This document shows, in pieces, positions 6,001-9,000 of a DNA stretch of 64,000 nt. The stretch's first letter is position 1, and the number at the start of each line of letters is the position of its first letter. Where the stretch lies: the NCBI RefSeq assembly GCF_051903065.1, contig NZ_CP178439.1. The stretch is one strand, 5' to 3'. The stretch is from Escherichia coli. Its GTDB lineage: Bacteria; Pseudomonadota; Gammaproteobacteria; Enterobacterales; Enterobacteriaceae. The position numbers are program-made.

Positions 6001-9000
6001 AATGCGATCATGGCAAACTGAAACGGATAATCGGCGCCACGCTGGGATTTAAATCCATGAAGACGGCTTACGCCACCATCAAAGGTATTGAGGTGATGCG
6101 TGCACTACGCAAAGGCCAGGCCTCAGCATTTTATTATGGTGATCCCCTGGGCGAAATGCGCCTGGTAAGCAGAGTTTTTGAAATGTAAGGCCTTTGAATA
6201 AGGAGAGCATGAAAAACCTCGGGGCAGCCATCGAATGATGCCATCTACAGGGGTTAAAATAACCACCATCATTTCATAACAATACCTGCTGACTATGAAG
6301 ATCTACGTCATCAAAATAGCAGTTCATGGAGTCAGTCCGATGGTCTGGCGTCGGCTGAGAATTGCTGCCGACACGTCACTGGCCGCGCTTCACTTCATTT
6401 TCCAGATAGTGCAGGGCTGGGGGGACGACCATCTCCATCAATTTCACATTTATGGCAAAGATTACGGTATCTCCTACGAAGGAGGCATCGGTTTTGTCGA
6501 TAATCCGTTCCGGGTCGTGATTGATGATTTTGCTTTTGATGCTGGCGATCGCTTTACCTATGAATACAATTTCTGGCACTGTTGCAAAGTTAGCGATGAG
6601 GCAGCCTTTTGTCTTATTCAAAGGCCTTACATTTCAAAAACTCTGCTTACCAGGCGCATTTCGCCCAGGGGATCACCATAATAAAATGCTGAGGCCTGGC
6701 CTTTGCGTAGTGCACGCATCACCTCAATACCTTTGATGGTGGCGTAAGCCGTCTTCATGGATTTAAATCCCAGCGTGGCGCCGATTATCCGTTTCAGTTT
6801 GCCATGATCGCATTCAATCACGTTGTTCCGGTACTTAATCTGTCGGTGTTCAACGTCAGACGGGCACCGGCCTTCGCGTTTGAGCAGAGCAAGCGCGCGA
6901 CCATAGGCGGGCGCTTTATCCGTGTTGATGAATCGCGGGATCTGCCACTTCTTCACGTTGTTGAGGATTTTACCCAGAAACCGGTATGCAGCTTTGCTGT
7001 TACGACGGGAGGAGAGATAAAAATCGACAGTGCGGCCCCGGCTGTCGACGGCCCGGTACAGATACGCCCAGCGGCCATTGACCTTCACGTAGGTTTCATC
7101 CATGTGCCACGGGCAAAGATCGGAAGGGTTACGCCAGTACCAGCGCAGCCGTTTTTCCATTTCAGGCGCATAACGCTGAACCCAGCGGTAAATCGTGGAG
7201 TGATCGACATTCACTCCGCGTTCAGCCAGCATCTCCTGCAGCTCACGGTAACTGATGCCGTATTTGCAGTACCAGCGTACGGCCCACAGAATGATGTCAC
7301 GCTGAAAATGCCGGCCTTTGAATGGGTTCATGTGCAGCTCCATCAGCAAAAGGGGATGATAAGTTTATCACCACCGACTATTTGCAACAGTGCCCGTCGG
7401 CTTGAGATGCACATGTTGGCTGAGGTCGCCGGGTAGCGTGAACAGGCGCGGACCGTCCCGAAACTGGAACACGCGATACAGATGGAATTGATCGCCCGCC
7501 TCCTTGGAGAATTCGAGTTCGTTGTGGCTGACCAAGAAAGACGAGCCTACCCCGCCATTGGTGGTTTTCACCTCGATGAAGCGCTCATGGGCGTCCTCTT
7601 CGAACGACAGGATGTCGAACCCCGCACCGTCTCCCTGGGTGTCGGACACCCAATCCAGCCGCTGAAAAAGCTCTGGGTGGCCGAGCTCGGTCAGGCGTTG
7701 CTGTTCGTAGCCAATCACCCACTGCTCCCCTGCCCGGCCCAGCTTGCGGTTGGCTTCATCGCGAGCGGCATAATCGAACTTTCGCGGTAGGCGTTGCCGT
7801 AGAGATGCCGGGGTACGCACAAGCACTTCACGGGCGGGTGGTTCTACCAAAGCCGCTCGGTAGGTTTTGTCACCCGGAAGTTTTACCTCCTCCAGGGCAT
7901 CGACAAGAGCGCCGACCGTCTGCTGATGTTCCAGAACGTAGGCGTGTACGGATTTACGCAGCAGCAGTTGGCTGTTGCCGCGTGGCTTGTAGCCGTTGAT
8001 ATAGGGCAGGCCCAGGGCATCGAGTACGGCGCTAATGTTCTGGTGCTTGAGCTCGACTGAAGACTTGCTGCGACCGTTCAGCAGTTGGCGCAGTGCCTGG
8101 TTGTGCTCGGACTTGTTGTACGGCTCCCCAGCCGCCTCGGCACGCAGCATGTCGAAATAGTCTTCGACCGTGGCCAGGACCTCTTCTTCGGACCAGTCTT
8201 CGCCGATGCGAATGATGCGAAACCCGAGCCGCGTCAGCGCCGGAACGACGGTCGCCTCGCCACTGGAGAAGCTGTCAGCAGTGAGCGGGCCCTGCTCGGG
8301 AAATTGCTTGCCGAAGGCCACACCGGCGATGGCCTTGGAATCGCAATCGGTGCCGGTCTTCGGATCACGTACCAGGAAGTCGCGGGACTTGCCGTAGCCG
8401 TGGCGCGCCAGGAATTTCGTGCGGCCCAGTTGCACGAACTCATCGATGGCAGCCTGCACGGCGGCGGGGCTTCGAAGCTGGGAGAGTTGAGACACAGGGT
8501 CCTTCCTTACTGTCATGGTGTGCCGGGAACCGCCGAGCCACGAGATTATGAGTAGCCCCTGAACAGAAACGTCACGATAAAAGCCGTGAACGCCACCAGG
8601 CCCATTAAATCCCTTGCGTATTTGCAGCCCGTGCTGTCCAAACCTGTACCAGGTCCGATCAACACGCTCCAACCATTGAGGTACGAAAACACCGCCTGAC
8701 CGAACAAAAAATGCGTGATAGCCGCCGCAGCCATGACGCCGGAATCGTCAGACAGGCTGTAGCTGTTGACCATTGCCCTGTACGCCTGCATCTGAAATGG
8801 CTATTGCCCTGATGGGAGCCGGCTTTTCAGCCACCGACACCAGCGATGCCGTCAATATTCTTTACCCGATAACCATGACCGTACAAGCTAACAAGGCCTG
8901 GCAAGCCAGCGGACTTAAAAAGTCTTTTTTTCTACCATCCCACAAAAAAGTTCGTGGTGGAGAAAAGATAAGCTATGCAAGGCTTTAGGAGACGTGGTTT

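What the first reader, a model, noticed from the sequence alone, without database searches (positions are those of the whole stretch)
7395..8516. Nuclease-domain (DUF3883-like) gene co-mobilised with aac(3)-II/tmrB and clipped by IS26
The passenger segment between the two IS26 copies carries, besides aac(3)-II and tmrB, a roughly 380-codon gene whose C-terminal region has a D...E.K pattern (GFDILSF...ERFIEVKTT) typical of PD-(D/E)xK nucleases, a fold often found in modification-dependent restriction or defence proteins. IS26 replaces only its last few codons. Whether it is functional, and whether it is defence-related, is unknown.
Basis: inference. Interest (0 to 1): 0.5.

Follow-up and report, generated by a model that had tools for sequence, protein, structure and literature searches.

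The report
IS26-clipped defence-island nuclease gene passenger
This is a real, already annotated gene for a DUF3883 (PD-(D/E)xK) nuclease that came from Pseudomonas/Stutzerimonas defence islands, hitch-hikes with the aac(3)-IId/tmrB resistance module on more than a thousand plasmids, and in this copy has lost its last 11 codons to IS26; its anti-phage role is plausible but untested.

Summary

The product has three domains:
- an N-terminal ScoMcrA-head-like domain;
- a helical middle domain;
- a C-terminal NOV_C/DUF3883 PD-(D/E)xK domain, with D294, E308 and K310 invariant in 70 homologues.

It matches PADLOC's untested candidate family PDC-S36 (E 6e-104). Chromosomal homologues (63-89% identical in Stutzerimonas, Pseudomonas and Variovorax) lie in integrase-bounded islands next to Gabija, DpdF/GajB-like helicases, Mrr and PIN genes. 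They evolve under strong purifying selection (dN/dS 0.06-0.09).

The gene is not new. It is annotated "DUF3883 domain-containing protein" in about 1,350 PLSDB plasmids and 599 of 5,426 complete E. coli genomes, and it is "orf1182" in published aacC2-tmrB-ISCfr1 maps. About 60% of plasmids keep the full 378-aa gene; many share this exact IS26 clip.

Among 13 plasmid-module copies compared, all 7 substitutions are non-synonymous, and this copy has a private G78S in a conserved motif. So it looks like an unselected passenger.

The parts
7368..8495 (-). The ORF as it now stands: GTG start at 8495, 367 native codons, 8 IS26-encoded codons (GTVANSRW) and a stop at 7368-7370. This is a 375-aa protein; the same clipped form without G78S is RefSeq WP_014837927.1.
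7395..8495 (-). Native part of the ScoMcrA_N-NOV_C (DUF3883) gene, aa 1-367 of 378. It is 99.9% identical to the copies in about 1,350 plasmids and 80-84% nt identical to Stutzerimonas/Pseudomonas chromosomal genes.
8500..8508 (-). Shine-Dalgarno-like AAGGAAGGA, 4 nt upstream of the GTG start.
   Evidence: read directly from the sequence
8205..8495 (-). N-terminal ScoMcrA-head-like domain (about aa 1-97; Pfam PF26345 ScoMcrA_N in precomputed annotation).
8264..8264 (-). Substitution private to this window (G to A on the gene strand) giving G78S in the conserved F-S-G-G motif of the head domain. It is absent from all matching PLSDB plasmids and E. coli complete genomes.
7791..8204 (-). Middle all-helical domain (about aa 98-235) with no Pfam family. 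Its first three helices superpose on homeodomain-like DNA-binding folds. Together with the nuclease domain it forms the conserved 280-aa PDC-S36 core.
7437..7730 (-). NOV_C / DUF3883 domain (Pfam PF13020; aa 256-353 in GTG numbering), the PD-(D/E)xK nuclease fold.
7566..7616 (-). Catalytic-motif codons: D294 (7614-7616, GFDILS), E308 (7572-7574) and K310 (7566-7568, IEVK). All are intact here and invariant in 70 homologues.
6575..7394 (-). IS26 copy whose end at 7394 truncates the gene and supplies its last 8 codons and the stop.
11150..11969 (-). Second IS26, in the same orientation, bounding the 3,755-bp passenger segment 7395-11149.
9470..10885 (-). Co-passengers: tmrB (9470-10012) and aac(3)-IId (10025-10885, identical to the pCTX-M3 allele).

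Best explanation
**What it is.** The ORF is a hitch-hiking, C-terminally clipped copy of a single-gene defence-island nuclease. The intact protein is 378 aa and has three domains:
- a small ScoMcrA-type 'head' domain;
- a helical, homeodomain-like (probably DNA-binding) domain;
- a DUF3883/NOV_C PD-(D/E)xK endonuclease domain.

The last two domains form the conserved core of PADLOC's candidate family PDC-S36.

**How it most likely works (inferred).** In its native Pseudomonas/Stutzerimonas islands it probably acts as a stand-alone, nucleotide-independent endonuclease. The N-terminal and middle domains would recognise foreign DNA, possibly modified DNA as for type IV restriction enzymes. The Mg2+-dependent D294/E308/K310 site would cut it.

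**How it got here.** The gene was picked up next to an ISCfr1 insertion into the aac(3)-IId-tmrB module and has spread with that module.

**State of this copy.** IS26 removed the last 11 residues, a conserved but non-core tail. A private G78S hit a conserved glycine. The gene is therefore best regarded as an unselected passenger whose activity here is doubtful.

**Shown:** domain identity, catalytic-motif conservation, fold, defence-island context, origin, clip and prevalence.

**Inferred:** nuclease activity, DNA target, defence role and loss of function.
For: **Domains and fold**
- Pfam NOV_C, E 1.2e-21.
- PADLOC PDC-S36, E 6.3e-104 over model positions 4-274 of 280; also PD-T4-1 and TmtA C-terminal matches.
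- Precomputed PF26345 ScoMcrA_N plus PF13020 in all close homologues.
- AF2 model pLDDT 92.2.
- D294, E308, K310 and E257 are invariant in 70 sequences down to 34% identity.
- DUF3883 is the catalytic domain of the modification-dependent enzymes YenY4I and McaZI (PMC6765204).

**Modular family**
- The 280-aa core occurs alone or behind variable N-termini, including EVE modified-base readers in 2 of 10 long relatives tested.

**Context**
- Islands with integrases, Gabija, 1,700-aa DpdF/PsyrT/GajB-like helicases, a DUF2075/SLFN helicase plus MazG-like gene, Mrr, PIN, and ThsC-like HIT and PtuB-like HNH genes.
- The immediate neighbours differ between lineages, which favours a self-contained gene.

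**A real gene under long-term selection**
- dN/dS is 0.06-0.09 against chromosomal homologues.

**Origin**
- Nucleotide homology to Stutzerimonas is limited to the ORF.
- An ISCfr1-like IS (about 95% identical) sits at the same spot downstream of the gene in S. kunmingensis.

**Passenger status**
- In PLSDB, 729 of 1,188 records keep the intact 3' end followed by ISCfr1; many others share this exact IS26 clip, and some are truncated further or have lost the gene.
- Across 13 plasmid-module copies compared (mostly plasmid records, some short contigs), all 7 substitution events are non-synonymous and none is synonymous.
- G78S is private to this window.

**The clip leaves the core fold intact**
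- The last strand ends at residue 355, and residues 361-378 are coil in the model.
Against: - No member of PDC-S36 has been tested. The source paper calls its 145 PDC systems 'untested phage defence candidates' (bioRxiv 10.1101/2024.01.29.577857).
- The ScoMcrA head domain has no known function (PMC6224610), and no recognised modification-reader domain is present in this protein. Modification dependence is therefore analogy only.
- Intact copies persist in Dam+/Dcm+ enterobacteria. Either the enzyme does not target those marks or it is not expressed.
- No sigma-70 consensus promoter was found upstream.
- The lost tail contains a conserved [YF]369-R-A371 motif, so the effect of the clip could be anything from none to complete inactivation.
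- Seven non-synonymous substitutions against zero synonymous is compatible with neutrality (P about 0.14). It also occurs among very recent alleles of genes that are still under selection.
- A 1,700-aa helicase lies directly upstream in several chromosomal lineages, so the gene may not be fully autonomous.
Confidence: 0.7

Rival explanations
1. Selected defence cargo. The gene, including the IS26-clipped form, is expressed from the plasmid and actively restricts phages or competing plasmids. It would then contribute to the success of the aac(3)-IId module rather than merely riding with it.
For: - The catalytic motif and the whole core fold are retained in the clipped copy.
- There is a strong SD before the GTG start.
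- The intact ORF is kept in most of about 1,350 plasmids and in 11% of complete E. coli genomes.
- The family is flagged as a defence candidate and lies in defence islands.
Against: - The gene is frequently truncated or lost with no visible effect on the module's spread.
- Only non-synonymous changes are seen among the plasmid-module copies compared.
- This copy has a private change at a conserved glycine.
- No promoter match was found.
- No experimental test exists.
Confidence: 0.2
2. Orphan effector of a two-gene system. In nature the nuclease would work with the 1,700-aa DEAD/RecQ-like plus UvrD-like helicase encoded just upstream, as in nuclease-NTPase defence systems. The plasmid copy lacks that partner and would be inert.
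For: - The giant helicase is directly upstream on the same strand in lineages P0005 (stop and start 2 nt apart) and P0004 (94-nt gap). It is in the same island in P0009.
- The helicase matches the DpdF, PsyrT and GajB defence helicase models.
- Lutz et al. suggest that some DUF3427-DUF3883 enzymes couple to NTPases or helicases (PMC6765204).
- No helicase remnant is present upstream in the plasmid module.
Against: - P. aeruginosa and Variovorax homologues and a metagenomic homologue have other neighbours and no such helicase within 8 kb.
- In L004 four unrelated genes separate the helicase from the nuclease gene.
- PADLOC models the core as a single-gene ('S') candidate.
Confidence: 0.15
3. 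Housekeeping DNA-repair or recombination nuclease of the donor (for example an Hjc/RecU-like junction resolvase) with no defence role.
For: The best PD-(D/E)xK structural matches include the Holliday-junction resolvases Hjc and RecU.
Against: - Within Pseudomonas/Stutzerimonas the homologues examined sit at different loci with different neighbours, next to integrases, transposases and defence genes rather than conserved housekeeping operons.
- The variable N-terminal fusions, including EVE and the ScoMcrA head, are typical of restriction and defence proteins.
Confidence: 0.04

Closest known systems
PADLOC candidate system PDC-S36 (single-gene 'phage defence candidate', PADLOC-DB v2)
   Same: Residues 105-375 (ATG numbering) match the model end to end (positions 4-274 of 280, 345.6 bits). 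About three-quarters of the 150 best relatives align only over this 280-aa core (middle helical domain plus NOV_C), and many of them are stand-alone proteins of about 280 aa.
   Different: This protein has an extra ~97-aa ScoMcrA-type head domain in front of the core, as do 36 of the 150 best cluster representatives. The PDC systems are described as untested, so membership says nothing proven about function.
DUF3883-type modification-dependent restriction endonucleases YenY4I / McaZI (PUA/DUF3427-DUF3883; Lutz et al. 2019, PMC6765204)
   Same: Both have a C-terminal DUF3883 PD-(D/E)xK catalytic domain behind N-terminal specificity domains. Both are single polypeptides without an ATPase, occur in defence islands, and are sometimes next to DUF2075/SLFN-type NTPases.
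   Different: There is no PUA or DUF3427 reader domain here. The N-terminal domains are a ScoMcrA head and an uncharacterised helical domain. Modification dependence is not shown.
ScoMcrA (type IV phosphorothioation-dependent restriction endonuclease, PDB 5ZMM)
   Different: ScoMcrA continues with SBD, SRA and HNH domains. This protein has a different helical domain and a PD-(D/E)xK nuclease instead. A profile built on the 280-aa core found no SBD-like or SRA-like chain. The head domain itself has no known function.
PD-T4-1 and TmtA models in PADLOC (defence proteins with a DUF3883-like C-terminus)
   Same: Residues about 240-355 match their nuclease region (E 1.8e-17 for PD-T4-1, 3.4e-14 for TmtA).
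   Different: The similarity is confined to the nuclease domain. The rest of those proteins (383 aa and more than 1,300 aa) is unrelated. No text describing PD-T4-1 was found in the source paper: its only matches for that term were PD-T4-10.
The published 'aacC2-tmrB-orf192-orf228-orf1182-ISCfr1' module (pCTX-M3, pEl1573 and others)
   Same: The window carries the same module. The gene is most likely the module's 'orf1182' (it is the last ORF before ISCfr1, as in pCTX-M3; the size in the name does not exactly match the 1137-nt CDS). In RefSeq it is 'DUF3883 domain-containing protein' WP_000080860.1 / WP_000080861.1.
   Different: Here ISCfr1 and the last 11 codons are replaced by IS26, a junction shared with many other plasmids. 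An IS10 end fragment precedes aac(3)-IId. There is one private missense change.

Membership tests
Pfam PF13020 NOV_C (DUF3883) | Match to the family HMM above the gathering threshold | tested here: met
   77 bits against a cut-off of 22.1, E 1.2e-21, profile positions 1-90 of 91.
PD-(D/E)xK nuclease superfamily | Catalytic D ... (D/E)-x-K motif on the central beta-strands | tested here: met
   D294 (GFDILS) and E308-V-K310 (IEVK) are invariant in 70 homologues and intact in the window copy.
PD-(D/E)xK nuclease superfamily | Alpha-beta-beta-beta-alpha-beta core fold | tested here: met
PD-(D/E)xK nuclease superfamily | Divalent-metal-dependent phosphodiester cleavage | not testable with these tools
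   Needs a biochemical assay.
PADLOC PDC-S36 | Full-length match to the PDLC05008 model | tested here: met
   E 6.3e-104, 345.6 bits, model positions 4-274 of 280.
PADLOC PDC-S36 | Demonstrated anti-phage activity | not testable with these tools
   The source paper describes its 145 PDC systems as untested candidates. No paper in the library mentions PDC-S36.
Defence-island gene (guilt by association) | Homologues lie next to known defence or mobile-element genes in unrelated genomes | tested here: met
   Gabija, DpdF/GajB-like helicases, Mrr_cat, PIN, a SLFN/DUF2075 helicase, ThsC-like HIT, PtuB-like HNH and integrases were seen in five chromosomal lineages with substantial flanking sequence; a sixth, on a 2-kb contig, shows only a DUF2726 neighbour. 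This is qualitative; no background-corrected enrichment was computed.
Type IV (modification-dependent) restriction enzyme, ScoMcrA-like | ScoMcrA N-terminal head domain | tested here: met
Type IV (modification-dependent) restriction enzyme, ScoMcrA-like | A recognised modified-DNA reader domain (SBD, SRA, EVE/PUA, DUF3427) | tested here: not met
   Pfam finds no hit for residues 1-240. A profile built on the 280-aa core found no SBD-like or SRA-like chain in the PDB. EVE occurs only in other members of the family.
Type IV (modification-dependent) restriction enzyme, ScoMcrA-like | HNH nuclease domain | tested here: not met
   The nuclease domain is PD-(D/E)xK/NOV_C, not HNH.
Type IV (modification-dependent) restriction enzyme, ScoMcrA-like | Cleavage only of modified DNA | not testable with these tools
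   Needs in vitro or in vivo assays with modified substrates.
IS26-bounded translocatable unit / pseudo-compound transposon | Passenger flanked by two IS26 copies in direct orientation | tested here: met
   IS26 at 6575-7394 and 11150-11969, both with tnp26 on the minus strand and intact terminal repeats.

The most novel reading that the evidence does not exclude
The intact allele (WP_000080860.1 / WP_000080861.1) could be an active restriction enzyme of a new architecture: ScoMcrA head, a novel helical DNA-binding domain and a DUF3883 nuclease. It might recognise a DNA modification other than Dam or Dcm methylation. It would protect its hosts from phages or exclude rival plasmids. One of the commonest aminoglycoside-resistance modules, found in 11% of complete E. 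coli genomes, would then spread together with an immune gene that helps explain its success.
Probability: 0.2. Interest if true: 0.55.

Novelty: already known. Interest (0 to 1): 0.27.

Why it matters
The gene shows that a very common resistance module (aac(3)-IId-tmrB-ISCfr1/IS26) carries a candidate anti-phage nuclease out of Pseudomonas-type defence islands into Enterobacteriaceae, Acinetobacter and Aeromonas.

If the intact allele were active, it would be a cheap test case for an untested PADLOC family, because natural full-length, clipped and missense alleles already exist. It would also be an example of antibiotic selection spreading immunity genes.

As it stands, the gene is an annotated passenger of unknown function, and this copy is damaged. 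The finding mainly tidies the annotation: strand, start codon, domain content, origin and extent of the clip.

Tried and rejected
- NCBIfam and PHROGs gave no hit.
- Sequence search of the PDB found only a weak ScoMcrA head match with the single protein. A profile of the core found nothing meaningful.
- The afdb50 library was unavailable.
- The local Pfam copy lacks PF26345, and no family covers the middle domain.
- 'PDC-S36' is absent from the searchable literature and from the stored supplements of the PADLOC embedding paper.
- No description of PD-T4-1 was found in the Vassallo et al. text.
- I looked for a remnant of the chromosomal helicase neighbour upstream of the plasmid gene and found none.
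- I looked for donor DNA beyond the ORF. Nucleotide homology to Stutzerimonas stops at the start codon.
- The promoter and terminator scan of 7300-9500 was uninformative.
- Two context look-ups for more distant homologues returned only short contigs.
- I considered and rejected a spurious ORF (dN/dS 0.06-0.09; thousands of homologues) and a housekeeping resolvase (variable island context).
- I did not run the expensive genome-wide locus scan, because five independent lineages with substantial flanking sequence already showed defence and mobile-element neighbourhoods.
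Full report
**1. What is in the sequence**

ORF listing shows a 434-codon ORF on the minus strand, 7368..8672.

The more probable start is the GTG at 8495:
- it is preceded by AAGGAAGGA at 8500-8508;
- every natural homologue starts there (MSQLSQL...);
- RefSeq annotates the gene from that codon.

The IS26 terminal repeat GGCACTGTTGCAAA ends at 7394. The reading frame runs ...LKPT | GTVANSRW*, where intact homologues read ...LKPT DYRASFRSLVG*. So 367 of 378 native codons survive, and 11 are replaced by 8 IS26-derived codons.

The passenger segment 7395-11149 is bounded by two IS26 copies in the same orientation, 6575-7394 and 11150-11969. It also carries:
- tmrB at 9470-10012;
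- aac(3)-IId at 10025-10885, identical to the pCTX-M3 allele.

The only corrections are the strand and the start codon.

**2. What the protein is**

*Family matches.*
- Pfam gives NOV_C (PF13020, formerly DUF3883) at 77 bits, E 1.2e-21.
- PADLOC gives an end-to-end match to the single-gene candidate PDC-S36 (E 6.3e-104, model positions 4-274 of 280).
- PADLOC also gives nuclease-domain matches to PD-T4-1 and TmtA, and a weak match of residues 18-102 to the N-terminus of a type IV restriction model.
- Precomputed Pfam annotation of all close homologues lists PF26345 (ScoMcrA_N) plus PF13020. The local Pfam copy lacks PF26345 and has no family for the middle region.

*Family size and architecture.* An exhaustive HMMER search found 7,954 homologous 50%-identity clusters, 760 of them at E <= 1e-30. 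About three-quarters of the 150 best hits align only to query residues ~98-375. Many of these are stand-alone proteins of about 280 aa and the rest carry other N-terminal extensions. Thirty-six of the 150 carry the ScoMcrA-type N-terminus. Two of ten long relatives tested have an EVE modified-base reader domain in front of the core.

*Conserved residues.* In a 70-sequence alignment reaching 34% identity, D294, E308, K310, E257 and T312 (GTG numbering) are invariant.

- PD-(D/E)xK nucleases for the C-terminal domain: I-Ssp6803I 7.5, Hjc 7.4 and 7.3, NhoI 6.9, RecU 6.6, MspI 6.2.

*Literature.* DUF3883 is the PD-(D/E)xK catalytic domain of the characterised modification-dependent enzymes YenY4I and McaZI (PMC6765204). 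The ScoMcrA head domain is described as small, flexibly attached and of unknown function (PMC6224610).

**3. Where it comes from and what surrounds its relatives**

The closest chromosomal homologues are 82-89% identical in protein and come from Stutzerimonas and Pseudomonas. More distant ones (63-70%) occur in P. aeruginosa, P. putida and Variovorax. Nucleotide similarity between the window and Stutzerimonas loci covers only the ORF, 7396-8494, at 80-84% identity.

Neighbourhoods are typical defence or mobile islands:

| Lineage / loci | Neighbours |
|---|---|
| P0005 (L001-L003) | An integrase; a 1,729-aa DEAD+UvrD helicase ending 2 nt before the gene |
| P0009 (L004, L005) | The same type of helicase, then four genes including a DUF2075/SLFN helicase and a MazG-like gene |
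| P. aeruginosa (L012-L015) | Mrr_cat, CTD8/MC4, AAA_23, SLFN helicase plus MazG-like, PIN toxin, recombinases |
| Variovorax (L016, L017) | HIT, HNH and UvrD-type helicase genes downstream; integrases |
| P0004 (L021) | Gabija (GajA/GajB-like), the giant helicase, an integrase |

PADLOC models recognise several of these neighbours: DpdF/PsyrT/GajB for the helicase, PDC-S41/AbiO/Nhi for the SLFN helicase, ThsC-like HIT and PtuB-like HNH.

The gene has evolved under strong purifying selection between the plasmid allele and chromosomal homologues: dN/dS is 0.06-0.09 by Nei-Gojobori. It is therefore a real, functional gene in its native setting.

In S. kunmingensis an IS1182-family element about 95% identical to ISCfr1 sits at the same position about 30-45 nt downstream of the stop codon as in the plasmid module, although the genes themselves are only 83.5% identical. 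This points to a Stutzerimonas/Pseudomonas-like donor, or to a preferred ISCfr1 target behind this gene.

**4. How common and how well known it is**

The 2,076-bp stretch 7395-9470 is at least 99% identical in 1,347 of 1,351 matching PLSDB plasmids. These come from Escherichia, Klebsiella, Salmonella, Acinetobacter, Enterobacter, Aeromonas and other genera, and the gene is annotated 'DUF3883 domain-containing protein'. The gene is in 599 of 5,426 complete E. coli genomes.

Published maps call the unit 'aacC2-tmrB-orf192-orf228-orf1182-ISCfr1' (PMC7096625). pCTX-M3 carries the intact gene followed by ISCfr1 and blaTEM-1.

A junction probe showed 729 of 1,188 plasmids with the intact 3' end plus ISCfr1. 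A large group ended at exactly the window's IS26 junction (query 1-201), and others were truncated further or had lost the gene. The clipped 375-aa form has its own RefSeq protein, WP_014837927.1. The feature is therefore already known as a sequence. Its function has not been tested, and PDC families are explicitly untested candidates.

**5. State of this particular copy**

Against the consensus plasmid allele the window differs by one base at 8264. This gives G78S in the F-S-G-G motif, where 27 of the 30 aligned head-domain sequences have Gly, as does ScoMcrA itself. No PLSDB plasmid or complete E. coli genome has this change.

The 11 lost residues are coil in the model, after the last core strand (350-355), but they are confidently placed (block mean pLDDT 84-90). 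They contain a conserved [YF]369-R370-A371 motif: 67, 37 and 60 of 70 sequences respectively. The catalytic residues and all core secondary-structure elements remain.

Among 13 plasmid-module copies (mostly plasmid records, some short contigs) I found 7 independent substitution events, all non-synonymous: G78S, A81T, N127H, K150Y, D199N, R341S and H361Y. None was synonymous.
- With about 855 non-synonymous and 279 synonymous sites, this fits neutrality (P about 0.14).
- It does not fit the long-term regime (P about 1e-5 at omega 0.08).
- One caveat: recent polymorphism always inflates dN/dS.

No sigma-70 consensus promoter was found upstream. No remnant of the chromosomal helicase neighbour is present.

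**6. Interpretation**

Best explanation (confidence about 0.7): this is a hitch-hiking, clipped copy of a single-gene defence-island endonuclease. The inferred mechanism for the intact protein is recognition of foreign, possibly modified, DNA by the head and helical domains, followed by Mg2+-dependent cleavage by the D294/E308/K310 site.
- Modification dependence is suggested only by analogy: DUF3883 enzymes YenY4I and McaZI, the ScoMcrA head, and EVE-fused paralogues.
- This protein has no recognised reader domain. I therefore do not file it as a type IV enzyme.
- Persistence of intact copies in Dam+/Dcm+ hosts means that, if active, it does not target those marks.

Rivals:
- actively selected defence cargo (about 0.2);
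- orphan effector of a helicase-nuclease pair (about 0.15);
- housekeeping resolvase-like nuclease (about 0.04).

**7. Verdict**

The feature is ordinary in the sense of being an annotated, widely distributed passenger gene belonging to a catalogued, though untested, candidate defence family.

Interest is low to moderate (0.27). The most novel reading still open is that the intact allele is a working restriction enzyme of a new architecture that co-spreads with aac(3)-IId (probability about 0.2).

Noticed in passing
window 9078-9376 (+): 5' exon 9078-9112, intron 9113-9325, 3' exon 9326-9376: A tRNA-Leu(UAA) gene is split after U34 by a 213-nt group I intron, the canonical cyanobacterial/plastid position. 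It lies inside the aac(3)-IId/tmrB module.
- Manual splicing gives an 86-nt tRNA-Leu(taa) that ARAGORN accepts.
- Rfam Intron_gpI scores 36.8 bits, E 8.6e-8, below the gathering score of 50. The default ARAGORN and Rfam runs missed it.
- It is present, with no feature listed in PLSDB's tables (which hold no RNA genes), in about 1,290 plasmids.
- The RefSeq CDS 'orf192' lies about 40 nt upstream of the tRNA, on the strand opposite to the resistance genes.
- No paper in the library mentions both 'group I intron' and tmrB.
- There is weak similarity to a Gordonia phage and a jumbo-phage contig.
- It may be a clue to the donor of the module.
   Followed up: partly
window 10918-11149; RNA-OUT at 10966-11035 (-): A ~230-bp outside-end fragment of IS10, cut by IS26, lies 32 bp upstream of aac(3)-IId. 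It has a full-length RNA-OUT match (98.8 bits), and RNA-OUT/pOUT points toward the resistance gene, so it may drive its transcription. pCTX-M3 has a different sequence at this position, flanked by IS26.
   Followed up: partly
L001 11180-12768 versus L007 3600-5209: An IS1182-family element about 95% identical to ISCfr1 is inserted at the same place downstream of the DUF3883 gene in Stutzerimonas kunmingensis and in the plasmid module. The adjacent genes are only 83.5% identical. In the sister loci L002 and L003 the site is empty. This suggests either a shared donor lineage or a site-specific ISCfr1 target behind this gene.
   Followed up: partly
L001 4810-9999; L021 4763-9907; L004 130-5256: A 1,708-1,729-aa fusion of a DEAD/RecQ-like helicase (DpdF/PsyrT-like) and a UvrD/GajB-like helicase recurs directly upstream of, or near, the nuclease gene in three chromosomal lineages. 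It may be a partner or a separate uncharacterised defence gene.
   Followed up: partly
window 8546-8791 (-): This is 'orf228', a small ORF on the same strand about 50 nt upstream of the nuclease gene (81 codons as listed here; annotated as 75 aa, WP_000248278.1). It has two hydrophobic stretches, judged by eye. It has no Pfam hit and is absent from the chromosomal contexts of the nuclease homologues.
   Followed up: partly
window 1048-62775: Eighteen IS26 terminal-repeat matches were found, corresponding to at least eight complete IS26 copies. The copy starting at 5421 has a full transposase ORF (5466-6188) but no matching right-hand repeat near 6240. A lone repeat lies at 14944-14957.
   Followed up: no
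proteins P0246, P0250 (relatives of the core): Some family members carry an EVE (PUA-like modified-base reader) domain in front of the same 280-aa core. This is the strongest hint that the core serves as the effector of modification-dependent nucleases.
   Followed up: partly
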